Of a stretch of 40,029 nucleotides of DNA, positions 20,749-34,218 are shown piece by piece. The position numbers were made by a program, and so were the translations under genes. The notes under the pieces are model-generated. The model saw only the letters and a list, made by a program, of their open reading frames with translations, searched no databases and was not told the origin of the DNA. The stretch is taken from the sequence record NC_019721.1. One strand, given 5' to 3'. The DNA comes from Enterobacteria phage mEp390. Each line of letters begins with the position of its first letter. Position 1 is the first letter of the stretch.

Positions 20749-20988
20749 ATGCCTCGTCAACTTGATATACGTGCAGCCTTTTTAGCGGCCATACAACAGA
20801 ATCCTAAGGGATATCTTTGTTTGAACACTGACAAATTCATCACTGAATTGCGCTTTAGGAATTGGCATTTCAGCCAGGCAGATGCCAATGCCTGGATTAA
20901 GAGATACCAACCAGACTTTGCTGATAAGACGACGGATGGAAGCGATAACCGTTACTGGATCTTGCGTAATATGGGGAGGGTTTTCTGA
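20749..20988 (+). CDS. hypothetical protein, first gene of putative SOS-controlled operon
   Basis: 79-aa ORF with GAGAGGG RBS, 25 bp downstream of LexA box; stop overlaps next start (ATGA). Confidence 0.5.
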   Translation: MPRQLDIRAAFLAAIQQNPKGYLCLNTDKFITELRFRNWHFSQADANAWIKRYQPDFADKTTDGSDNRYWILRNMGRVF

Positions 20989-21308
20989 TGGGCTTTCCTT
21001 CACCTGCTATGGATTACCAGGAACAGCGGTTAACCATAGATCTGTTATGCGGAATTGATGGGAACTGCAGGGTAATAGAAACATCCTGTGGTTGGGCAGT
21101 GATTAACATTGCTCTAAGGCCAGAGCAGGGAGATACGCTACTGGTAAGAATGGATAACAGGAACGAGTTTGCAAAGCTATACGGGGCGGCATTGATAACT
21201 GAAGATGGTGAAGCGATAGAAGGCGACGCGCTGGATGATGTGGAAGTGTTTGGTGTGCTAACGCATAGTCTTAACCGCGTTTGTAATGATGATTGCCCAG
21301 CCATTTAA
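20988..21308 (+). CDS. UmuD'-like S24-fold protein lacking N-terminal tail and probably the catalytic dyad
   Basis: begins M-GFPSPAMDYQEQR, matching the UmuD segment just after its Cys-Gly cleavage site as recalled; C-terminal VEVFGVLTH resembles UmuD DVFGVVIHV; no SGDSM motif seen. Confidence 0.5.
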   Translation: MGFPSPAMDYQEQRLTIDLLCGIDGNCRVIETSCGWAVINIALRPEQGDTLLVRMDNRNEFAKLYGAALITEDGEAIEGDALDDVEVFGVLTHSLNRVCNDDCPAI

Positions 21309-21663: not shown

Positions 21664-22674
21664 TTACTGCCCCCCAACCACCGGTACTACAGATATTTTG
21701 CGGTTGTATCTTGCAGTCTGCGAAGCATTTTTGTGGCCTGATATTTCTTGTTTCTCATGCAGCGTACCTTCCAAATCAGATATCCCTTTGGCTTTCAGGT
21801 CATGGAAAGTAAAGTCAAATTCGATCTCAGGGAATTTCTCAGCGGCTAACTTTTTCGCCTTCATCCACTGCGCATTAAAAGCATCTCGTGTATATCTCGA
21901 TCCTGATGGCTGGTGAATAACATACATGCTAACCATTCCTTCTTTGAGAGGTAAGGAATCAGCCAAGGAGATTGCACGCCTTAAGCGATCGGTCCATTTT
22001 TTGATTTGACTCACTGCTGTCTTACTTTGCTGAATCATGATTCCTTCATGAAGAAGCTGCGTTTTTTTTAGATCAAGAATATCCCCCTGTCTAGCGCAGC
22101 ATAGATAGGCAACCTCCATAGCGATTTTTACAGGAATAGTTGCAATACTGTACAGAGCATCATATTCGTTATCAAAAACGTAACGAGTCCTGGCCTTTTC
22201 TTTAAACTGCTTTACCCCTTGGCAAGGGTTCATCTTCACTTTTCCACGCTCATATGCCCACCTGAATACCCTCGACATAAACGCTTTTTCTCGGTTCGCC
22301 TGAACTCTGCTCTTAACCCCCCTCTTATCCATATACTTTCTGATGTGCTCCGGCTTAATGTTTTCTGGTTTCATTTTGCCGAAAACGACATTTACCTTTG
22401 AACCATATTTCCGGTAATCCTTTCTGGTTTCTGTTGCCAGATCATGAAAGTCACCAGAGTTAAAAAACTCTTCGCAAAGAGCATGAAAGTTGGAACCAAC
22501 CTTTATATCGTTGATGAAGTTTTCATACGCTGCCCAGACCTGAGACTTTGTGAGATCGAGGTTGCACAATCTCACAGTTCTCCCGTCTGGCGTTCTGAAC
22601 TCATAAGCAGATTTGCCTCGACGCACGCGGGGCGGCATCCAGTTATCTTCTGGGTTTTTGCGGATTCTGGGCAT
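21664..22674 (-). CDS. int: tyrosine-type site-specific integrase
   Basis: 336-aa ORF with C-terminal HxxR and RY catalytic-region motifs (HDLKAKG, ARYNRK); adjacent to att core. Confidence 0.88.
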   Translation of the reverse strand: MPRIRKNPEDNWMPPRVRRGKSAYEFRTPDGRTVRLCNLDLTKSQVWAAYENFINDIKVGSNFHALCEEFFNSGDFHDLATETRKDYRKYGSKVNVVFGKMKPENIKPEHIRKYMDKRGVKSRVQANREKAFMSRVFRWAYERGKVKMNPCQGVKQFKEKARTRYVFDNEYDALYSIATIPVKIAMEVAYLCCARQGDILDLKKTQLLHEGIMIQQSKTAVSQIKKWTDRLRRAISLADSLPLKEGMVSMYVIHQPSGSRYTRDAFNAQWMKAKKLAAEKFPEIEFDFTFHDLKAKGISDLEGTLHEKQEISGHKNASQTARYNRKISVVPVVGGQ

Positions 22675-22916: not shown

Positions 22917-22934
22917 TCAACCGGCTGCACCCGG

Positions 22935-23213
22935 CTATCTCTTATAGAAAATGCATGATGAACAACCACCACGGAGCCCATCATTGCAGGTACGACATCT
23001 TTTTGTTTCGGTGTAATAGAGCTGGTGGACCATTTCCTTTGGCATGAGAACCGGCATCGGCACTCGGATAACCAGCTTTTTGAGTCTGTCTATCTCAGCT
23101 GCGTGCTCCAGCGCGATATCCTTCCAGTCCTGCGCTTCGGCCATCCACCAGGCTACATCTGCTTTAAGGCGGCGCAAGCGCCGCTGTTTGAGTTTGCTCA
23201 CCATGGCAGCCAC
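22935..23213 (-). CDS. hypothetical early protein
   Basis: 92-aa ORF, co-oriented with early-left operon. Confidence 0.4.
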   Translation of the reverse strand: MAAMVSKLKQRRLRRLKADVAWWMAEAQDWKDIALEHAAEIDRLKKLVIRVPMPVLMPKEMVHQLYYTETKRCRTCNDGLRGGCSSCIFYKR

Positions 23214-23270: not shown

Positions 23271-23579
23271 TTAGGCATGGCGTTTTCTCTCTGCCGGTAA
23301 TGGAGGGATATCCATCCACATGATAACCCTCACAATAACACCTTCATTCCCACGCCACTCGTCAGATTCGCAATCGTAGCAGGATGTAATCGCAACGCCG
23401 TAATCTGTCTGGACCAGGTAAATCCCGTTACTTTCAGGTTTAATTTCTGATGCATCATTCCAGATAGGAATCGGGCCATTGCGGTATATCTCCTGAAGCT
23501 CCCGTGCCATGTGGTAGGCGATGTGCCTGCGCCCAAAATCACGAACAACCTCTTTGAGCCTTTCATGGGAAATTGTCAC
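23271..23579 (-). CDS. hypothetical early protein (DUF551-like)
   Basis: 102-aa ORF, overlaps next gene stop; lambdoid early-region family by recollection. Confidence 0.45.
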   Translation of the reverse strand: MTISHERLKEVVRDFGRRHIAYHMARELQEIYRNGPIPIWNDASEIKPESNGIYLVQTDYGVAITSCYDCESDEWRGNEGVIVRVIMWMDIPPLPAERKRHA

Positions 23580-24505
23580 GGCTTCACCTCCTGCTGCGGT
23601 GCTGCTGCAATCATTGCCTTGTGCATGGCGTCGTATCCGTCTTCCTCTACGCGTGCGGCGGCGTCGATCATTGCTCGTGTCGCATCAACCGGCACCAAAA
23701 CCCAACCATCCGGAATCACCGGAGAGTTGCCACCGGCTTTGATGTGCATACGCGGTTCGCCGTCTTTCGGCTCCGGCCACTGGCGCGCCATGTTCTCTTT
23801 CAGCTTTTCTTCCATCGCTGCTGTGATTTCACCGTCACTGATACCGGCGCGGCGCTGGGCATCCCATAGCAGGAACTGCATATCAGCCCACTCGCTGAGG
23901 TCGTCAGGTTCGGCGGCTGCCTCCAGCGCCTCTTTCGAGAGGTGTTTTAGTGGACCTATGGGGCCAACATCACCGAACGTAGCCTGTGACCACTCAGCAT
24001 GGCGCTGACGGATGAGATTGCGTAACTGCAGCGATGATCCAATTTCTTCGGGCAACTTGTAAGCCGTCGTTACAGGTTCGGCACCCTGAAGCATGGCGGA
24101 TCGGCGTGACAGCAGTCTTTTAGCCTCAATGCTGCCTTCTGCCTCAAGCTCTCCTTCAGCCTCTAAGCCACCCTCAAGGTATTCAACCACATCAGCAATC
24201 CACTGCTCCCACGCACCTGGCACTGCCGGCGCTGGCGGGGCGGTGTACAAGGGGCCGCACTTCCAGCCAGCATCTAGTGCTTTTTTTGCCCCAATGCGAT
24301 TGATTCCTTCGTCTGGATTATCCATATCAACATCTCGCTTACCGTCACGCTCCCACATCCACGCCACAGGCTCCGCTGCGAGCGATGCCAGCGCGATACG
24401 CGCCAGTTCGTGAACCTCCCACTCTTCTGCATTTGCCTGACAGTCGCTTCCCTCAGAATTGAACTGAAGGAGGTTTGCTACGCGTTCTCTGGTAATAGTG
24501 CTCAT
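23576..24505 (-). CDS. early protein with C-terminal DUF550 / MazG-like nucleotide pyrophosphohydrolase-like domain
   Basis: 309-aa ORF; segment HAEWSQATFG...EWADMQFLLWDAQRRAG resembles the dATP/dGTP pyrophosphohydrolase domain family. Confidence 0.45.
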   Translation of the reverse strand: MSTITRERVANLLQFNSEGSDCQANAEEWEVHELARIALASLAAEPVAWMWERDGKRDVDMDNPDEGINRIGAKKALDAGWKCGPLYTAPPAPAVPGAWEQWIADVVEYLEGGLEAEGELEAEGSIEAKRLLSRRSAMLQGAEPVTTAYKLPEEIGSSLQLRNLIRQRHAEWSQATFGDVGPIGPLKHLSKEALEAAAEPDDLSEWADMQFLLWDAQRRAGISDGEITAAMEEKLKENMARQWPEPKDGEPRMHIKAGGNSPVIPDGWVLVPVDATRAMIDAAARVEEDGYDAMHKAMIAAAPQQEVKP

Positions 24506-25011
24506 GATGCCTCTCCTTTACCGGCTGCGGCGGCGATACGAAAAAGTTTAATGTCGCCACTGTCTGAGTTCTGCTTACTCCAGATAAGTGACGTTTCTCG
24601 CCCACGCTCGTTGATATGCATGAGATTTCTTTCGTCTGTAAAGCATGCAGGAATGAAAGCTACAGGGAGTGGATAGAGGGCAACTGCATCATCACCCCAT
24701 TGCTCAACTGCATATTTCTCATCGGTTGTGAACCTCGACATGAATGATGTGACGTTAGCGCTCCTCATCCATGCCACTGGCTTAACCTCCCGCGCCTCCA
24801 GCTCAGCAATCCGCTTCTCTGCGGCTTCCAGCTCATCCAGCAGCGCCAGCACGGTTGCGGGGTTGGCTGCGGCAATAAATTTGGCGTCCGTCCGGTGAAG
24901 TGCAAGACCATAGTCGCTAGCCAGTTGATCTTCATTCCACCAGGTCTCTCCTTCTTCTGAGATGGCCTTCTCTGCCGCTTCCCGTAATGCGCGTTTGTCG
25001 ATGTTGCTCAT
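24502..25011 (-). CDS. Ea22-like early protein
   Basis: 169-aa ORF with N-terminus MSNIDKRALREAAEKA typical of ead/Ea22-like proteins as recalled. Confidence 0.5.
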   Translation of the reverse strand: MSNIDKRALREAAEKAISEEGETWWNEDQLASDYGLALHRTDAKFIAAANPATVLALLDELEAAEKRIAELEAREVKPVAWMRSANVTSFMSRFTTDEKYAVEQWGDDAVALYPLPVAFIPACFTDERNLMHINERGRETSLIWSKQNSDSGDIKLFRIAAAAGKGEAS

Positions 25012-25664
25012 TGGGCGGCCTCCTGGCGGTCTATGCGTTCAATTTCAGCCAGAATAAGTGCGCCCGCTTTCACCAGGTCACGGCGTGGATTTGTAGGTTT
25101 CCACCATTCTGGTGCCCACGGCCAGTCCAATGGAATTCGGTTAAAGGAATGGATGGTATTCAGTACGTAGCATGAGGATGCCCACAATAACTGGGATTCT
25201 CCGTACTGGTCGTCATGCTCAGGCGTCCAGCCCTCAACAGATTGCTGGCGTTGACGCTCTGAAATCACTGACTGAACTGCATTGGATAGCGATTTCACAC
25301 CGCTGGCCCGCACTTCAGCCAGAAAAGCGGATGTCGCCGGGGTGCTTTCGAGAAATTGCCTTGTCTTTTCAAGAACGCACCAATCCGGTACAGCTGCACC
25401 TGAAAGCGATCCATTGCCACGGCGTTCTCCTGTATCGCATGAATTGAATATCTCAAGAAGCTGAGTCTTCAGCCCCGCATTCTCCGCAGCCAGCGCCTCA
25501 GCATCATTGCGAACCTTACGCAGTTCCAGTACAGCAACCTGAACTGCATAAGCGAACATAGCGCAAGGGCGGTTACAGTCTGTCTCAGCATCGCGCTGCA
25601 TGTTCACTGCAACAGTCATCAGCTCATCCAGCTGTTCGGCGGTCATTGGTTTATTGGCTGTCAT
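25008..25664 (-). CDS. hypothetical early protein
   Basis: ORF on the minus strand; start chosen at ATG with AGGA RBS 9 nt upstream (track ORF extends to 25805). Confidence 0.45.
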   Translation of the reverse strand: MTANKPMTAEQLDELMTVAVNMQRDAETDCNRPCAMFAYAVQVAVLELRKVRNDAEALAAENAGLKTQLLEIFNSCDTGERRGNGSLSGAAVPDWCVLEKTRQFLESTPATSAFLAEVRASGVKSLSNAVQSVISERQRQQSVEGWTPEHDDQYGESQLLWASSCYVLNTIHSFNRIPLDWPWAPEWWKPTNPRRDLVKAGALILAEIERIDRQEAAQ

Positions 25665-26685
25665 GATCATTTTCCTGCTGCAGTTTGTATTTCTTAACGA
25701 AGTGGGCCACAGCCTTTGACTGGCTAGCGGCAATGGTTTTGTCACCCATGTCCAGCCAAACGGTTTTTCCGCGATACAGTGAGGCCCGACCAATGTCTTT
25801 ACCATCGAGCATCACATACAGAGTTCGTCCGCGAATTTCTGTGGTCGGGACTGGCTGTGACAAGCGATACGTTTCACGCGCTTCCGCAATCGCTTTGTGC
25901 TCATCCATAATTGCCAGCGCTTCAGCAAGGGCAGTTCCTTCAAGAGTGAAAACACCTTCATCACTGATCGTCGCCTGAGCCATCAGCTCAACAAAACGGC
26001 GCGCGTTCTTTACGCTAAGTTCCGGCGCGATAGAACTGCGGGTAACTTTCTTTTTGCCCTGGGCAGCCGCTACAGCCTTATCATGCTGGAGAACTTTTCC
26101 GGCCTGTTCGCCATACTCCATAACGCGATCAACTGCGACGTCTACTGACACCGCACCGGATTTAACTTCCTGCTGAACGTCATGGTTCGCAGTGCTCAGG
26201 AGAAGCAATTTCTCTACCGTGGCCACTGACTTATTGACCAGTTTTGCTATTTCGCTGGTGGTCTGGTTGAACGCGTTATGTAGCTCCTGAATAACTGCGG
26301 CCTGTTCCATATCGGAAAGCGGTAGTTGGTTGTTACTGGTCATGATTCGCGCCAGCCGCTGAACATCGTTACCGTTGAACGGCATGATGTGGATGCGGTC
26401 TACTGGCTTGCCAGCTTCAGCACAGCGCGCATAGCAGCGACGGCGGCGGTGACCTTCGACAACCCATACACCACCTTCATCACGGGCGATAACTTCCAGC
26501 GGTGGAACTGATCCGCCGTTCATCAGGTAGTTAAATAGGTCCTCATCAGCCTGGCGGGTGCGTTCATCATCTTCACGTTTGTTGAAACCTTCACGAACAT
26601 GGATATCGGAAAGGGCGATAAACATCCCGGTATCGGTGCGCTTAATTACACCGGCCTTGGTCATTTGCTTGAATGAGTTAGCCAT
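25651..26685 (-). CDS. ParB-like nuclease domain protein
   Basis: ParB N-terminal signature VVEGHRRRR; start chosen at internal ATG (MANSFKQ) with GAGG RBS (track ORF extends to 26820). Confidence 0.6.
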   Translation of the reverse strand: MANSFKQMTKAGVIKRTDTGMFIALSDIHVREGFNKREDDERTRQADEDLFNYLMNGGSVPPLEVIARDEGGVWVVEGHRRRRCYARCAEAGKPVDRIHIMPFNGNDVQRLARIMTSNNQLPLSDMEQAAVIQELHNAFNQTTSEIAKLVNKSVATVEKLLLLSTANHDVQQEVKSGAVSVDVAVDRVMEYGEQAGKVLQHDKAVAAAQGKKKVTRSSIAPELSVKNARRFVELMAQATISDEGVFTLEGTALAEALAIMDEHKAIAEARETYRLSQPVPTTEIRGRTLYVMLDGKDIGRASLYRGKTVWLDMGDKTIAASQSKAVAHFVKKYKLQQENDHDSQ

Positions 26686-27044
26686 CAGAGAGCAACCTCG
26701 TTCTTCATGGAAATCACCACAGGAGGCAGTTCGCGCAGTTCTCGCTGAGCTTCCAGCAAGTGCATGTTGGTAGGCGTTTTGGTGTGGCGCTCTTCGATGC
26801 GGTCGCACTCTTTGGCCCAACTGGCAACATCCTCACGTAGGGTGGCGTTCTGCTCAGCCAGTTCCTTCCGCTGCGCCATCGCTTCACAGAGCGCGACGCT
26901 GGTAACATCAAGGCGTGTAGCCAGTTCATTAACCATCCAGCCGTAAGCGGCAGGAAGGAGAGAGGCGGCCTTACGAGCTGAGTCGATAAGTTGCTCCCGT
27001 GTCATGCGTGGTTGTAACTCGGTGACGTTCTGTGTGTTCGTCAT
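26685..27044 (-). CDS. hypothetical coiled-coil early protein
   Basis: start chosen at ATG with GGAG RBS (MTNTQNV); stop overlaps next start. Confidence 0.45.
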   Translation of the reverse strand: MTNTQNVTELQPRMTREQLIDSARKAASLLPAAYGWMVNELATRLDVTSVALCEAMAQRKELAEQNATLREDVASWAKECDRIEERHTKTPTNMHLLEAQRELRELPPVVISMKNEVAL

Positions 27045-27870
27045 GGATAGTTTCTCCGTGTTATAAGCGCTCTGCACAGCGCTGATTTTTGGTTGCACGA
27101 ATCCCTCGCCGTTTGGCGACAAAAAATAAAGGGGTTTCGTTTTAGTAAGCACCCAACCAGGGCACTTAGTGAAACGGGCGGCTGCCACCACCAATTAGCT
27201 TCTCCACAATTGGGAGCGCGTTCCCCTGAGTTGATTTAACGACTGAGGCCTCTCAAGGAACTGGCCGAACGCGCTTTCAGTTGTGAAAAGGGGCGGTCGA
27301 CATTAAGGACATTCACAACTGCCGACCGCCAAGACTACACACAGCATCTGGTACAGCTACTACGGTTTACACAACTGGAAGCGCACTCCGTTCGTTTACT
27401 TACCTGTCATCCACAACCGATAGTTGATGGAATGCGCTTTCATGTTGTGTGCCGGTCTTTCCCGGCTGTCAGTTCTTTATTGCCATTTGAACTCATCGGC
27501 CTAACGTGTTTTAACGACCTTTCCCGTTTGCATAATCTTGTCGCGGCGGTTATCGCTGCCGAAGCGCCACTGTCCAGGACATTTATCAGGACCGTCTCCA
27601 AGTGGTAACTCTTCCAGTCCCGCTAAGCACCTGCAGAGATGCTTAGCGTGATTGGCTGATATCCTCGTCTCTTCCGAGGTGTCACACCGTATCGCCACGC
27701 TGGTGAAGCGTCTCTGGCTGTCGTACACAACTGTCTTGCACATTCCGGCTACCCGCTGGATCTGGATACTGAAAGGAATCCACGGACCGCTGCGGCACAT
27801 GTGCCATATACCGTACTGCTTACTACCACACCGGCGCAGGTAAATGTCAGTACCTGTGGCGTGATTTAAA

Positions 27871-27921
27871 TGTAGGATATCTTACTTCATTGTGTCAACA
27901 CTTAAAGTAGGAAAACTTACA
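27871..27921. promoter_or_regulatory. oL operator sites / pL region
   Basis: GTAGGATATCTTAC and GTAGGAAAACTTAC, same family as the three sites upstream of cro. Confidence 0.6.
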
Positions 27922-27972: not shown

Positions 27973-28629
27973 TTACAGGTCAGTAACTACTTGTTTTACT
28001 ACACCAACAATTTTGCAGTTACCATTTACTTCCATAACACGATAGTTAGGGTTCAGCGGAACAAGATATTTTAATGGCCCATCAATAACAAACTTTTTGA
28101 GAGTTGCCTCAGCAGAACCGACAATTTGAGCGACAACAATTTTTCCATTTACTTCTTGTGGGCTGCCGTAATCGGGGTCCACCACGACGAATGAGCCTTC
28201 CGGGATACTTGGTGCTCCGTTTGGATTTGTCATCGAGTCACCGCGAACACGTAGTGCAAAACCTTCATCTGATAAGCTGGCCGTAGTGAATATCCATTCG
28301 GAAATATCACCTTCAGTTATTGGAGCTCCACTCTCTGTCCATTCCCCAGCCTGTACCCAAGATAGGATAGGGATTTTCTTTACACCAAACTTCTCAGTCG
28401 GCTTATAAAGAATCTCGTCACAGTCTGGATCACCGTGTCCCGTAATTATCCACTGAGGGTTAGTTTTTAAGGCAGCCGCCAGCCCCTGTAGGTTAGAGCC
28501 ACCAGGTTCATAATCACCAGACTCCCATCCTGTAACCGTTACTCGGTTTACGCCTACCAGCTTGGCGAGAACAGCCTGGGTGAGCTTCAGCTCTTTGCGT
28601 CTTGCGCGGATGCGTTCATTCATTTTCAT
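27973..28629 (-). CDS. cI: CI-like repressor (HTH plus S24 autopeptidase domain)
   Basis: 218-aa ORF with XRE-type HTH (LTQAVLAKLVGVNRVTVTGWE) and S24 motifs (GDSM, later Lys); start codon abuts first operator. Confidence 0.88.
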   Translation of the reverse strand: MKMNERIRARRKELKLTQAVLAKLVGVNRVTVTGWESGDYEPGGSNLQGLAAALKTNPQWIITGHGDPDCDEILYKPTEKFGVKKIPILSWVQAGEWTESGAPITEGDISEWIFTTASLSDEGFALRVRGDSMTNPNGAPSIPEGSFVVVDPDYGSPQEVNGKIVVAQIVGSAEATLKKFVIDGPLKYLVPLNPNYRVMEVNGNCKIVGVVKQVVTDL

Positions 28630-28691: not shown

Positions 28692-28728
28692 TATCATGAT
28701 GTGTGTTTCCCTTACATTTGAGGCAAAA

Positions 28729-28926
28729 ATGAAAAAAGATGATGTGGTTTCTTACTTCGGCAGCGTGGGGAACGTAGCGAAGGCATTAGGAATTTCCCAT
28801 GCATCGGTTTCTGGGTGGGGTGAAGTAATCCCAAAAGGTAGGGCATTTGAGATTCAGGCACTGACTTCTGAAAAGCTGAAAGTCGATCCATCCCTTTACG
28901 CAAAGCCTAATCAAAACGCTGCTTAA
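28729..28926 (+). CDS. cro: Cro-like HTH regulator
   Basis: 65-aa product from ATG after GAGG RBS (MKKDDVV...), HTH-like VAKALGISHASVSGW; divergent from cI. Confidence 0.65.
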   Translation: MKKDDVVSYFGSVGNVAKALGISHASVSGWGEVIPKGRAFEIQALTSEKLKVDPSLYAKPNQNAA

Positions 28927-29434: not shown

Positions 29435-29905
29435 ATGGTAGAGCCAAGCCTGAAAGAAGTAGTGAAAACGATGTGCAAAGCGTACCCGGGTGGCCGTGAG
29501 GCTATGGCCGGTGCTCTCGGCATGTCAGTGACGCAGTTCAATAACAACCTGTACGAGAAGAACGGCTGCCGCTTCTTTGAAGTGAACGAGCTGGAAGCGA
29601 TGGAAGACATTTCAAACACGTCTCTCCTGGCTGATTACTTCGCGCAACGTCGCGGCGCTCTGCTGGTGGACGTTCCGCAGTTGGAAGACCTCGATCGCGT
29701 AGACCTGTTTACCCGCGCAATGAGAACTGCAGCAGCACGCGGTCAGGTTGATCAGATTATCCAGAAAGCCCTGGAAGACGGAGTGATTGAGCCGCATGAA
29801 GCCGAAGAGATTAACGAGCATCACCGCCGTCATCTGGCAGCGCGTGAAGAAGAAATACGCGCGATTGTTGCGCTGTTTAGCCGTAAGAAAAGCCCAAAAA
29901 AGTGA
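29435..29905 (+). CDS. phage regulatory protein CII-like (CP76 family)
   Basis: 156-aa ORF, AAGGA RBS; sequence MSVTQFNNNL... resembles CP76-type CII regulators as recalled. Confidence 0.5.
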   Translation: MVEPSLKEVVKTMCKAYPGGREAMAGALGMSVTQFNNNLYEKNGCRFFEVNELEAMEDISNTSLLADYFAQRRGALLVDVPQLEDLDRVDLFTRAMRTAAARGQVDQIIQKALEDGVIEPHEAEEINEHHRRHLAAREEEIRAIVALFSRKKSPKK

Positions 29906-29967
29906 CGCCAGCGGGCGTGCAGGCCCCTGGCGTCTTGGCGTGTCGTATTCAGTGGAGAAACTAACGC

Positions 29968-31972: not shown

Positions 31973-32958
31973 GAGCCATACTGACACCTGAAGTTGCGCC
32001 AATGTCCGGGGTGGTGCTGTTCCGGCCAGGAAATGAGTTGCTGTGGTTGTTTCGTCGCGGCCGGGTGGTTATTGAAACGCCATCTGAAGCTATTCAGCAT
32101 CTGCCATCTGGGCTGATTCCTGAAGCTCACCAGCCACTGACAGATGATGACAGCATGCAGGAACTTTTACTGAACGATCGGGTTATTCTGCGTGCTGGTG
32201 GGCTTAGCAGTCTTGATGCCTGGCTGGAAAGAAAATTCGAATGTCAGTGGCCCCACAATGAATGGCACTCAAAGGACTTTACGGTGATGCGTCACGCACC
32301 CGGAAGCATTCGTCTTTGTTGGGGATGTGATAACCAATTACGTGAACAAACCACTGAAAGACTGGCAGGAATTGCCATGCAGAACCTGTTAAAATGGCTG
32401 CTCGAACGGGTGAATATTATGCTGGGCTTTAGTGCAGACCACACCCTGACGTTACCGGAGTTCTGCTGGTGGATGGTACGTAACGATCTGGCCGACCTTA
32501 TTCCTGAATCAGTGGCCAGTAAAGCCCTCAGGATTAAGCCTGAATCGCACAGCCCAGTAATGCGAGAAAGCGACATTGTTCCGTCATTACCGGCAACTGA
32601 AATCCTCCAGGAGAAAGTTAAGAAGATAGTCTCGGTGAAGGTCGATCCTGAATCACAGGAATCTTTCATGCTGAGGCCAAAGCGTCGCCGCTGGGAGAAC
32701 GATAAGTACACCCGCTGGGTTAAGTCGCAGAAGTGCAGTTGCTGCAATAACCCGGCAGACGATCCCCACCACCTGATAGGCCACGGGCAGGGTGGAATGG
32801 GTACCAAAGCGCACGACCTGTTTGTGATACCGCTGTGCAGAGCGCATCACGATGAGTTGCACGCTGATCCTGTGGCATTTGAAGCGAAGCACGGCGACCA
32901 GTTAACGCTGTTGTTTCGGTTTTTAGATCGTGCGCTGGCAATTGGCGTATTAGCATGA
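31969..32958 (+). CDS. DUF968-like protein with C-terminal Cys/His HNH-like motif
   Basis: 329-aa ORF; C-terminus CSCCNNPADDPHHLIGHGQGG...CRAHHDELH. Confidence 0.55.
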   Translation: MRAILTPEVAPMSGVVLFRPGNELLWLFRRGRVVIETPSEAIQHLPSGLIPEAHQPLTDDDSMQELLLNDRVILRAGGLSSLDAWLERKFECQWPHNEWHSKDFTVMRHAPGSIRLCWGCDNQLREQTTERLAGIAMQNLLKWLLERVNIMLGFSADHTLTLPEFCWWMVRNDLADLIPESVASKALRIKPESHSPVMRESDIVPSLPATEILQEKVKKIVSVKVDPESQESFMLRPKRRRWENDKYTRWVKSQKCSCCNNPADDPHHLIGHGQGGMGTKAHDLFVIPLCRAHHDELHADPVAFEAKHGDQLTLLFRFLDRALAIGVLA

Positions 32959-33399: not shown

Positions 33400-34218
33400 T
33401 TATTCAGGGCTTGGGAAAGCGTTTGGTGGCATAAATTGTTGGAGGGCATATCTTATTTGAAGTCTAATGTAGTCCTCTGGAAAATCAGATCGATCTAAAG
33501 ATGATATAATTTCTTCTTCGTTAAATATGCCTGCCTTAATCATTTCATTTATCTTTGTCTTCATGCGCATTAAAATGTCTGTTCTGTTTATCTGGCGCGG
33601 GTATCGGATATTCGCGGAAATTTCACGAGAGTTGCTTTCTAACTCTCTAACTTGATGGGCTAAAATGCGTGTGTTGTTTAAAATTTCAGCCAACATGTCT
33701 TTATCAGTGCGAGCTGGAACGACCTCGTTAGGTTGATTATTGCTGAGGGCTCTACTAAATCCTTCTTCAAATTGAGGCCAGTAAGTTTCAAAAGCCTTTG
33801 CCAGGATATCATCAGGTAATTTACTTTCATCAAGTAATGAATTAATTGTTTTGAGGAGTTTAAAAACGCTATCTTTATTTTGAGTTGTATGGTTGAACTG
33901 AGAAAGTGGTGCTTCTAGGTCTTCAGGTTTTAAATCAATCAAAAATGTACACACTCTATTATCAGGAAGCCCTTTTGTTAGTGCTCCCGTTTCGAAAAGA
34001 ATCCACGGTTTATTTTTGTTTTCTTGAGTCAAGAAAACTACGCCTATTGAGACGTCCTTTAAAATTTCATTAATTTCGGAGAACCAGATTGCACCACGGT
34101 CAATATCTTTAGTTGAAATCCAAGGTTGTGCTGCTTGAATTACGCACTTCAACCATCCATTAAATTCTTCAGCAACAGCTTGGCTACGGTTTCCAGACCA
34201 ACTTAAGAATATTTTCAC
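33400..34218 (-). CDS. TIR-like domain protein with C-terminal helical domain of unknown function
   Basis: 272-aa ORF, GTG start with AAAGAGGT RBS; N-terminus KIFLSWSG...DIDRG..W....I.E.L....VVFLT...W.LFETGAL fits TIR beta-alpha pattern; markedly AT-rich. Confidence 0.55.
   Translation of the reverse strand: MKIFLSWSGNRSQAVAEEFNGWLKCVIQAAQPWISTKDIDRGAIWFSEINEILKDVSIGVVFLTQENKNKPWILFETGALTKGLPDNRVCTFLIDLKPEDLEAPLSQFNHTTQNKDSVFKLLKTINSLLDESKLPDDILAKAFETYWPQFEEGFSRALSNNQPNEVVPARTDKDMLAEILNNTRILAHQVRELESNSREISANIRYPRQINRTDILMRMKTKINEMIKAGIFNEEEIISSLDRSDFPEDYIRLQIRYALQQFMPPNAFPSPE

What the first reader, a model, noticed from the sequence alone, without database searches (positions are those of the whole stretch)
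25651..26685. ParB-like nuclease domain protein in the early-left operon
The protein has the ParB N-terminal GxRR signature (VVEGHRRRR) followed by a helical region, with no partition partner (parA) nearby. Early-operon ParB-like proteins with no partition context may act on nucleic acid or interfere with host processes rather than in plasmid-type partitioning.
Basis: partly seen in the sequence, partly recalled or inferred. Interest (0 to 1): 0.4.

Follow-up and report, generated by a model that had tools for sequence, protein, structure and literature searches.

The report
Orphan ParB-like early phage protein

Summary
Window 25651-26685 (-) is a real 344-aa gene under strong purifying selection (dN/dS 0.066). 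Residues 1-225 are a ParB N-terminal nucleotide-binding fold plus a ParB-type helix-turn-helix. The supporting matches are PHROG 1033, Pfam HTH_ParB, a profile hit to Spo0J at E 1.7e-15, and Foldseek hits to ParB-CTPγS, KorB and Noc.

Box II is kept as G78-H79-R80-R81. The Box III hydrolysis residues (ENLQR) are replaced by T116-S117, and the Box I glutamine is absent. The C-terminal 120 residues are a lineage-restricted domain with no structural relative.

The window is a complete HK97-like lambdoid phage. The gene lies in the pL operon, behind a terminator-like hairpin. The whole phage contains no ParA, no ParA-binding peptide, no parS or OB site and no repeat array. Among 80 close relatives none has a ParA; among 70 Pseudomonas-type relatives one does, 10 kb away.

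The "nuclease" label is not supported.

Most likely this is an orphan, nucleotide-gated DNA-binding protein acting early in lytic growth, like KorB, BisD or HerB, with an unknown target. Such distant ParB relatives in lambdoid early-left regions were already noted in Genome Res 2025. I rate it a new member of a known kind, of moderate interest.

The parts
25651..26685 (-). ParB-like gene, 344 aa plus stop
   Evidence: ORF and translation. PHROG 1033 at E 1e-86. dN/dS 0.066 against 30 relatives.
26326..26685 (-). N-terminal ParB nucleotide-binding (CTPase-fold) domain, residues 1-120. Includes the conserved N-terminal peptide NSFKQM and the GFNKR motif (res 33-37, 26575-26589).
   Evidence: AF2 model at pLDDT 87. 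Foldseek hit to M. xanthus ParB-CTPγS 7bnr at E 4.5e-9. N35 is invariant in 58 diverse family members.
26443..26454 (-). Box II (P-motif) G78-H79-R80-R81
   Evidence: Aligns with GERR of Spo0J and ParB. G78 and R81 are invariant and H79 is at least 90% conserved across the family.
26314..26349 (-). Degenerate Box III equivalent, RIMTSNNQLPLS (res 113-124)
   Evidence: The profile alignment places T116-S117 opposite the E-N of ENLQR. S117 is nearly invariant in the family.
26140..26319 (-). ParB-type helix-turn-helix DNA-binding domain (res 123-182)
   Evidence: Pfam PF17762 above its gathering score. Lowest dN/dS of the protein, 0.019. Matches the KorB and ParB DNA-binding domains.
25654..26010 (-). 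C-terminal region (res 226-344): two helices, a five-stranded sheet and a terminal helix. The last ~70 residues (25654-25860) are a swappable add-on, absent from the 275-aa variants.
26685..27044 (-). Upstream coupled gene, 119 aa (PHROG 14171, unknown function). The N-terminal 66 aa are conserved and the C-terminus is mosaic.
   Evidence: Present directly upstream of the ParB-like gene in 77 of 80 close relatives; the other 3 are cut by a contig end. Not found next to distant family members.
27045..27345 (-). Conserved structured non-coding leader that travels with the two genes
   Evidence: About 86% identity across prophages with different immunity regions. RNAalifold gives 59 pairs, 7 with compensatory changes. 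No Rfam match.
27284..27330 (-). Terminator-like hairpin (11-bp stem, then CCUUUU) between pL and the module
   Evidence: -20.6 kcal/mol, z -3.75. Relatives have different stem sequences in the same stem register, each followed by a U-run.
27066..27083 (-). Hairpin AGCGCU-GUGCAG-AGCGCU, 20 nt before the upstream gene's ATG
   Evidence: Compensatory CT/AG, TC/GA and CC/GG variants. One of four GUGCAG-loop hairpins in the window.
27869..27898 (-). pL-like promoter (TTGACA, 18 nt spacer, TACATT), next to operator-like repeats shared with the cI/cro intergenic region
   Evidence: inverted repeats I1 and I4.
25008..25670 (-). Downstream coupled gene, 220 aa (PHROG 9763, unknown function). Only its first ~55 codons belong to the conserved block.

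Best explanation
The gene encodes an orphan member of the ParB/KorB/Noc family. It has a nucleotide-binding ParB N-terminal domain, a ParB-type helix-turn-helix, and its own C-terminal domain, which is probably used for dimerisation. It is made as a delayed-early product of the pL operon, that is, during infection or induction and not in the lysogen. The most likely mechanism is that a dimer recognises a DNA site through the HTH. Binding of a nucleoside triphosphate at the GHRR pocket then closes or stabilises the complex on DNA. This would resemble KorB, BisD, VirB and HerB, which regulate genes or reorganise DNA rather than segregate replicons. Because the residues that catalyse CTP hydrolysis in canonical ParB are missing, the nucleotide probably acts as a binding ligand with slow or no turnover. 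Shown here: family and fold, motif status, operon position, absence of ParA and parS, and purifying selection. Inferred: nucleotide binding, clamp behaviour, dimerisation through the C-terminus, and whether the target lies on phage or host DNA.
For: Fold and family. Motifs: Box II G78/H79/R81 are conserved in 58 diverse relatives, whereas Box III is TS rather than EN. [quoted passage not shown] Real functional gene: dN/dS is 0.066, and lowest in the HTH at 0.019. There are 565 close homologues, and 1781 clusters at 50% identity. Orphan status: no ParA Walker A in the window or in 1.06 Mb around 80 relatives. One of 70 Pseudomonas-type loci has one, 10 kb away. No [LFI]G[KR]G[LFI] ParA-binding peptide (sequence). 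No parS, OB site or tandem array. Early expression: the gene sits behind pL and a terminator-like hairpin. Relatives always lie in early operons beside regulation, replication or recombination genes. Examples are MD8 in pL, Gungnir39 between RecE-like and RecT, Mulock between cII and O, and Eta next to a clamp and a helicase. Precedents on mobile elements are HerB and BisD.
Against: No binding site was found. Palindromes in the conserved block are better explained as RNA hairpins because they show compensatory changes. Inverted repeats inside the gene are chance. The Pfam ParBc model PF02195 does not hit, and TIGR00180 scores 41.6 against a cut-off of 58.45. In the PNAS survey, 17 of 28 purified ParB-fold proteins bound no nucleotide in vitro, so nucleotide binding is not assured. 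Dimerisation was not modelled. No experiment on any member of this family was found in the literature searches.
Confidence: 0.6

Rival explanations
1. It is an accessory to phage DNA replication or recombination. It would bind or coat phage DNA, or recruit or block host factors such as RecBCD, MukBEF or the replisome. On this reading it compensates for the missing Rec module and helicase loader of this phage type.
For: The gene occupies the slot where lambda has exo-bet-gam. This phage has no recognisable Rec genes and only an O-like replication gene. It carries 19 Chi sites, all on one strand, against 1.4 expected. The 80 close relatives are equally Chi-rich. This matches the 'no Rec module, high Chi' class of PMC12315714. 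Relatives sit between RecE-like and RecT, directly before O, or beside a clamp and a helicase.
Against: ParB-like genes also occur in phages that have full Rec functions. PMC12315714 states that no gene of unknown function is universally present in the early-left regions of Rec-less phages. Nothing in the protein resembles a recombinase, a nuclease or a Gam-like inhibitor.
Confidence: 0.15
2. It is a host-directed take-over or anti-defence protein. It would bind host chromosomal sites to reprogram transcription, as HerB does, or neutralise a host defence.
For: HerB is an orphan ParB-like protein made immediately after plasmid entry. It binds chromosomal sites and rewires host transcription. 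PMC12704722 suggests anti-defence or phage-host roles for prophage ParB-fold proteins. The variable, faster-evolving C-terminal add-on (dN/dS 0.26; swapped in relatives) would fit a host-interaction surface.
Against: There is no PADLOC match. HerB's D3 and D4 domains are absent, and the HerB family search found only three cyanophage members. No host target was identified. The family spans hosts from Enterobacteriaceae to Pseudomonas, Xanthomonas and Ralstonia with a conserved core, which argues against a narrow host-specific target.
Confidence: 0.15
3. It is a genuine partition protein that helps an extrachromosomal form of the phage to be inherited (plasmid-prophage or pseudolysogen).
For: Databases name it 'chromosome partitioning protein ParB'. 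Serratia phage Eta and MD8 authors raised a plasmid-like lifestyle. One P. piscis prophage has a ParA-like ATPase 1.6 kb upstream.
Against: There is no ParA, no ParA-binding peptide, and no parS or repeat array. That ParA-like gene is found in no other locus. The phage has an integrase. The gene is in the repressor-controlled pL operon, so it is off in a lysogen (lambda paradigm). Box III catalytic residues are absent.
Confidence: 0.04
4. It is a nuclease, as the old domain name 'ParB-like nuclease' suggests.
For: Only the historical name of PF02195, plus the annotation of some phage relatives.
Against: PF02195 itself does not hit. The best structural matches are the non-nuclease DNA-clamp proteins ParB, KorB and Noc. 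The full NTD+HTH architecture is present. No HNH or other nuclease domain is fused to it.
Confidence: 0.04

Closest known systems
Distant ParB relatives of lambdoid early-left (sometimes early-right) operons, noted by Zheng, Casjens, Davidson, Amundsen & Smith, Genome Res 2025 (PMC12315714)
   Same: The same kind of gene in the same place. The host phage type is also the same: no Rec module, many one-strand Chi sites, an O-only replication module and no N.
   Different: The paper only mentions them and suggests their function has changed. It gives no motif, structure, synteny or selection analysis.
Orphan ParB-CTPase-fold proteins of mobile elements (Kaljevic et al., PNAS 2025, PMC12704722)
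   Same: No parA partner, prophage-borne, Box III divergent and Box II retained.
   Different: Whether this family was among the 50 proteins tested was not checked, so its nucleotide preference is unknown. It fails the TIGR00180 and PF02195 thresholds used in that survey, so it may have been under-counted there.
KorB of plasmid RK2 (with KorA)
   Same: NTD plus HTH, with the best TM-score among solved structures (8qa9, TMt 0.70). KorB is a ParB-family protein used for transcription control (PDB title; mechanism from my own knowledge of McLean et al. 2025).
   Different: No OB operator is present. No KorA-like partner was recognised. The C-terminal domain shows no significant match to any solved structure, so none to KorB's. 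The profile E-value is weaker than to chromosomal ParB (9e-8 against 1.7e-15).
BisD of ICEclc (PMC12409273)
   Same: A ParB-like, CTP-dependent DNA clamp encoded by an integrated mobile element. It is used for long-distance gene activation during the element's activation (abstract).
   Different: Sequence relationship was not tested here. BisD works inside a defined regulatory cascade of the ICE. No loading site is known for the phage protein.
HerB (YfjB) of F-like plasmids (PMC13370423)
   Same: An orphan ParB-like NTD+HTH protein expressed immediately on entry of the element into a cell. It acts on DNA rather than in partition.
   Different: HerB is 652 aa with extra D3 and D4 domains and keeps a Box III glutamate that contacts Mg2+. 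The phage protein is 344 aa with an unrelated C-terminus and no Box III acid.
Canonical chromosomal ParB/Spo0J and Noc
   Same: The closest sequence-profile relatives (Spo0J 1vz0 at E 1.7e-15; Noc at 1e-10). Same NTD+HTH topology.
   Different: No ParA, parS, ParA-binding peptide, ENLQR or Box I glutamine, and no PF23552 C-terminal domain.

Membership tests
ParB/Srx (ParB-CTPase fold) superfamily | ParB N-terminal domain fold | tested here: met
   AF2 model at pLDDT 87. Foldseek probability 1.0 to ParB-CTPγS, KorB and Noc. Family profile versus Spo0J at E 1.7e-15. Some Pseudomonas homologues carry PF02195.
ParB/Srx (ParB-CTPase fold) superfamily | Box II / P-motif GxxR (GERRxRA) | tested here: met
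   G78-H79-R80-R81-R82-R83. G78 and R81 are invariant in 58 diverse members.
ParB/Srx (ParB-CTPase fold) superfamily | Nucleotide (CTP/ATP/GTP) binding | not testable with these tools
   Needs DRaCALA or ITC. PMC12704722 shows that sequence and AF3 cannot predict binding or specificity.
Canonical partition ParB (ParABS) | Curated model score (TIGR00180 / PF02195) | tested here: not met
   TIGR00180 scores 41.6 bits against a cut-off of 58.45. PF02195 does not hit at E <= 1.
Canonical partition ParB (ParABS) | ParB-type HTH (PF17762) | tested here: met
   24.9 bits against a cut-off of 22.6, residues 123-182.
Canonical partition ParB (ParABS) | Box III ENLQRxDL and the Box I glutamine needed for CTP hydrolysis | tested here: not met
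   T116-S117 lie opposite E-N. E38, in a variable column, lies opposite the glutamine of NPRQPR.
Canonical partition ParB (ParABS) | Adjacent parA (deviant Walker A ATPase) | tested here: not met
   No KGGxGK[ST] in six frames of the 40-kb phage. 0 of 80 close relatives have one. 1 of 70 Pseudomonas-type loci has one, 10 kb away.
Canonical partition ParB (ParABS) | N-terminal ParA-binding peptide (L/F/I)G(K/R)G(L/F/I) | tested here: not met
   Absent from the sequence. The N-terminus carries the family-specific peptide NSFKQM instead.
Canonical partition ParB (ParABS) | Cognate parS or a centromere repeat array | tested here: not met
   No parS within 3 mismatches. No tandem array. No palindrome shared with relatives other than RNA-type hairpins and an O-gene site. 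A single divergent site cannot be excluded.
Canonical partition ParB (ParABS) | C-terminal dimerisation domain (PF23552) | tested here: not met
KorB-type transcriptional ParB | OB operator TTTAGCSGCTAAA and a KorA partner | tested here: not met
   One 2-mismatch hit against 0.97 expected by chance. The upstream partner has no PDB or Pfam relative.
HerB family | Four-domain architecture, at least 80% coverage of D1-D4 | tested here: not met
   The protein is 344 aa with no D3 or D4 equivalent. The family definition is from PMC13370423.
Stand-alone ParB-like nuclease / sulfiredoxin type | Single ParB/Srx domain without an HTH, with a catalytic function | tested here: not met
   An HTH domain is present. 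Sulfiredoxin and SbnI matches are weak only (E >= 0.05).

The most novel reading that the evidence does not exclude
In N-less, Rec-less, Chi-rich lambdoid phages, the conserved block made of the structured leader, the 119-aa partner and the ParB-like protein is a functional unit. The unit would load a hydrolysis-deficient nucleotide-bound clamp onto phage DNA. The clamp would steer host RecBCD/Chi recombination or O-only replication, or act on early transcription through the recurrent GUGCAG hairpin junctions. This would be a new job for the ParB fold in virus DNA metabolism.
Probability: 0.08. Interest if true: 0.75.

Novelty: new member of a known kind. Interest (0 to 1): 0.35.

Why it matters
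ParB-fold proteins are the founding example of CTP-dependent molecular switches. Recent work shows that mobile elements reuse them for gene control: KorB, BisD and HerB. This phage family is large (1781 clusters at 50% identity), strongly conserved, found from enterobacteria to pseudomonads and xanthomonads, and always encoded among early genes. No member has been studied. A defined function would annotate hundreds of prophage genes that are now mislabelled 'chromosome partitioning protein ParB'. It could also explain part of how Rec-less, N-less lambdoid phages run their early programme. As it stands, the finding is a correct identification of an already noticed class, not a new kind of system.

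Tried and rejected
1. parS-like site search. Canonical parS and the KorB OB gave nothing above chance, and there are no tandem arrays. Of the palindromes with arms of at least 7 nt in the window, only one is shared with four related prophage loci (L003, L004, L006, L007), and it lies in the O gene.

2. Inverted repeats inside the gene. Pair 26160-26179 / 26517-26536 is 20 nt and 90% complementary; pair 26116-26133 / 26266-26283 was also checked. Neither shows compensatory change in 76 relatives, so both are chance.

3. The palindrome ACCGTTGAACGGT inside the gene (about 26371-26383). It encodes the conserved PFNG, and the middle codon varies in the 76-78% identical clade, so it was rejected as a site.

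4. Entropy scan of the conserved block for an over-conserved patch. It gave no clear outlier.

5. The upstream 119-aa gene as a universal partner. It is rejected as universal because it accompanies only the enterobacterial clade.

7. Defence or anti-defence assignment. PADLOC gave no hit.

8. Rfam assignment for the leader. No hit at either the gathering or the E <= 1 threshold.

9. Similarity of the leader to the HK022 early region (put sites). Only chance-level matches.

10. The Walker-like string ASLYRGKT in the C-terminal sheet. The T is not conserved, so it is chance.

11. A first attempt to scan viral contigs with the diverse alignment A1 failed for lack of a conserved stretch. Alignment A2 was used instead.
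Full report
**What is there**

Window 25651-26685 on the minus strand is an ORF of 344 codons plus TAA. Its ATG shares one base with the TGA of the upstream gene (cTGATGg). Its stop overlaps the start region of the downstream gene. It is therefore a translationally coupled member of an operon.

The window as a whole is a complete lambdoid phage genome.
- The head and tail genes are 92-94% identical to HK97-like phages mEp506, HK542 and mEpX1.
- Integrase is at 21664-22674 (-) and the CI-type repressor at 27973-28629 (-).
- Cro is at 28696-28926 (+) and CII at 29435-29905.
- An O-like replication gene, RusA, an HNH/DUF968 gene, Q, holin and endolysin follow.
- A pL-like promoter (TTGACA, 18 nt, TACATT) lies at 27898-27869, just after the cI terminator. 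It is flanked by operator-like repeats shared with the cI/cro intergenic region.

**Identity**

- PHROG 1033 'ParB-like partition protein' matches residues 1-296 at E 1e-86.
- Pfam HTH_ParB (PF17762) passes its gathering score at residues 123-182.
- TIGR00180 matches residues 41-194 but below its cut-off (41.6 against 58.45 bits). The ParBc model PF02195 does not hit.
- A single-sequence search of the PDB gives H. pylori Spo0J at E 6e-4.
- A profile built from 58 diverse family members gives Thermus Spo0J at 1.7e-15, Myxococcus ParB at 7e-15, Noc at 1e-10 and KorB at 9e-8.
- An AlphaFold2 model (pLDDT 87.4) matches ParB-CTPγS, the KorB-KorA complex, Caulobacter ParB and Noc with probability 1.0 over about 200-220 residues.
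- It also matches many phage 'ParB/Spo0J HTH' proteins in BFVD.

Residues 1 to about 225 are thus a ParB N-terminal domain plus a ParB HTH domain.

**Motifs**

It aligns with Box II GERRxRA. Across 58 representatives of 50%-identity clusters, G78 and R81 are invariant and H79 is at least 90% conserved. N35 (GFNxR), G105 (FxGND) and S117 are invariant or nearly so.

The profile alignment puts T116-S117 opposite the E-N of Box III ENLQR. It puts a variable position (E38 here) opposite the glutamine of NPRQPR. The residues that catalyse CTP hydrolysis in canonical ParB are therefore missing, while the phosphate-binding arginines are kept.

[quoted passage not shown] They also report that nucleotide binding, where present, depends on the Box II arginine, and that specificity cannot be predicted from sequence or AF3. 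I therefore infer nucleotide binding with little turnover. This is not shown.

**The C-terminus**

Conservation across the family stops near residue 225. Residues 226-344 fold as helix, hairpin, long helix, five-stranded sheet and helix.
- This region is found only in 19 database entries from Enterobacteriaceae.
- It is replaced or absent in 275-aa variants and other mosaics.

By analogy with all ParB-family proteins it is the likely dimerisation end. That is inference.

**Is it a working gene?**

Against 30 gap-free relatives, dN/dS is 0.066. By region it is 0.08 for the NTD, 0.019 for the HTH region, 0.045 for residues 223-275, and 0.26 for the terminal sheet domain.

There are 565 homologues with E <= 1e-5 in the 90%-clustered database, mostly in Enterobacter, Citrobacter, Kluyvera and E. 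coli prophages. There are 1781 clusters at 50% identity with E <= 1e-3 and 488 relatives in IMG/VR. Only 3 of 5426 complete E. coli genomes carry a close copy.

**Partition context**

- No deviant Walker A (KGGxGK[ST]) occurs in any frame of the window or in 1.06 Mb around 80 close relatives.
- Among 70 Pseudomonas-type loci, one has such an ORF, 10 kb away on the other strand.
- One P. piscis prophage has an AAA_31 ParA-like gene 1.6 kb upstream, but it recurs in no other locus.
- The N-terminal ParA-binding peptide is absent.
- Canonical parS and the KorB operator are absent beyond chance, and there is no repeat array.
- The phage has an integrase, and pL genes are silent in a lysogen.

Partitioning is therefore very unlikely.

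**Neighbourhood**

In 77 of 80 close relatives the ParB-like gene is directly preceded by a homologue of the 119-aa ORF at 26685-27044. The other three loci are cut by contig ends. This ORF belongs to PHROG 14171. Its N-terminal 66 residues are conserved and its C-terminus is mosaic.

The conserved block runs from about 25500 to 27400, whereas the immunity regions and the distal ea genes differ. It includes a roughly 300-nt non-coding leader, described under 'Things noticed' below.

The partner is not found beside distant family members, so the linkage may be recent common descent rather than function.

Distant members sit in other early positions:
- MD8, in pL.
- Erwinia Gungnir39, between a RecE-like nuclease and RecT.
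- Edwardsiella EPP-1, at the end of the left operon.
- Serratia Eta, beside a clamp and a helicase.
- Klebsiella Mulock, in the right operon between cII and O.
- Xanthomonas FoX3, between a helicase and a primase.

The constant theme is early genes for regulation, replication or recombination.

**Search for a DNA site**

- Of the palindromes with arms of at least 7 nt, only one is shared with four related prophage loci, and it lies in the O gene.
- Palindromes common to the 80 loci are either RNA-type hairpins or are forced by conserved codons.
- Two long inverted repeats inside the gene show no compensatory change and are chance.
- An entropy scan of the block shows no outlier.

No site was identified. 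A single site, or host sites, cannot be excluded.

**What is known**

[quoted passage not shown] Kaljevic et al. count about 1% of parB homologues as prophage-borne and describe orphan, long-branch ParB-like proteins on mobile elements.

Characterised analogues are KorB (structures 8qa8 and 8qa9), BisD of ICEclc and HerB of F-like plasmids. No experimental paper on this phage family was found.

**Verdict**

The interpretation 'not partition' is supported, and 'nuclease' is not. The best reading is an orphan, probably nucleotide-gated, DNA-binding ParB-family protein acting early in lytic development on a target not yet known (confidence 0.6).

Rivals are a replication or recombination accessory (0.15), host reprogramming or anti-defence (0.15), true partition (0.04) and nuclease (0.04).

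It is a new member of a known kind.

**Things noticed**

1. Chi sites. The phage has 19 Chi sites, all on the plus strand, against 1.4 expected. It has no Rec module, an O-only replication module and no N. This matches the 'LLS functional type'. The 80 relatives carry 559 Chi sites on the equivalent strand against 46 on the other. One Chi site lies inside the ParB-like gene.

2. The pL leader. It carries a terminator-like hairpin at 27292-27330 followed by CCUUUU. Relatives have different stem sequences in the same register. The leader has several further covarying hairpins and no Rfam match.

3. GUGCAG hairpins. Four hairpins with the invariant loop GUGCAG lie at gene junctions on the transcribed strands of both early operons, against 0.44 expected. 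The relatives carry 234 against 10 in shuffled DNA, with at least seven different stems. They are absent from HK022 and from distant ParB-bearing phages.

4. TIR moron. A TIR-domain gene lies between Q and the holin gene.

Noticed in passing
whole window; e.g. 2050, 7036, 11694 ... 39215 (+); one copy at 26254-26261 inside the ParB-like gene: There are 19 Chi sites (GCTGGTGG), all on the + strand and none on the - strand, against 1.4 expected. The phage also has no Rec module, an O-only replication module and no N. This matches the 'no Rec module, high Chi' LLS-type lambdoid phages of PMC12315714. The 80 close relatives carry 559 Chi sites on the equivalent strand against 46 on the other, and the Chi inside the gene is kept in 71 of 76.
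   Followed up: partly
window 27045-27345 (-), with hairpin 27292-27330 plus U-tract 27284-27291: A conserved, highly structured non-coding leader lies between pL and the partner/ParB genes. RNAalifold on 12 copies gives 59 pairs, 7 of them compensatory. The first hairpin looks like an intrinsic terminator. Relatives have different stem sequences in the same register. There is no Rfam match and no similarity to the HK022 early region.
   Followed up: partly
window 27066-27083 (-), 22918-22937 (-), 29913-29926 (+), 32831-32844 (+): Four hairpins have variable GC-rich stems and the invariant hexaloop GUGCAG. Each is on the transcribed strand of an early operon, at or near a gene junction, against 0.44 expected. 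There are 234 copies in 1.06 Mb of relatives against 10 in shuffled DNA, with at least 7 stem variants. Extra gene cassettes are inserted right beside one of them in some loci. They are absent from HK022 and from distant ParB-bearing phages. They may be a nut/boxB-like or RNA-processing element. I do not know of a published description.
   Followed up: partly
window 27794-27805: The perfect palindrome GGCACATGTGCC lies about 60 nt downstream of the predicted pL start. It sits inside a 100-nt patch (27700-27800) that is conserved in 54 of 80 relatives with different immunity regions. It is exact in 43 of 80 relatives, at variable distance from the ParB-like gene.
   Followed up: no
window 26685-27044 (-): The 119-aa gene is translationally coupled to the ParB-like gene. 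Its N-terminal 66 residues are conserved (MTNTQNVTELQPRMTREQL...) and its C-terminus is mosaic. It belongs to PHROG 14171 and has no Pfam or PDB relative. It always accompanies the ParB-like gene in the enterobacterial clade.
   Followed up: partly
window 33400-34218 (-): A 272-aa gene on the opposite strand between Q and the holin gene carries a TIR domain (PF13676, 28.7 bits against a cut-off of 28; PHROG 13899). It is a likely moron, possibly defence-related.
   Followed up: no
L006 and L007, 8828-9907 (Citrobacter prophages): The 275-aa variant of the ParB-like protein is followed directly by a 359-aa DndB-family protein (PF14072). DndB is itself a ParB/Srx-fold protein, so two ParB-fold genes sit in tandem.
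   Followed up: no
L094 4352-5395 (Pseudomonas piscis prophage): A ParA-like ATPase (AAA_31, Walker A RGGVGKS) lies in the early-left operon 1.6 kb upstream of the ParB-like gene. It was found in none of the other ~160 loci held.
   Followed up: yes
window 23576-24505 (-), 24502-25011 (-), 20988-21308 (+): Other accessory genes are present: a dATP/dGTP pyrophosphohydrolase domain (PF04447) in a 309-aa ea-type protein, an Ead/Ea22-like protein, and a UmuD-like gene next to the attachment region.
   Followed up: no
NZ_CP074176.1 (Enterobacter asburiae, 39.6-kb 'plasmid' in PLSDB): A record filed as a plasmid carries an 89% identical copy of the ParB-like gene and is phage-sized. It is probably a circularly assembled phage genome rather than a plasmid.
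   Followed up: no
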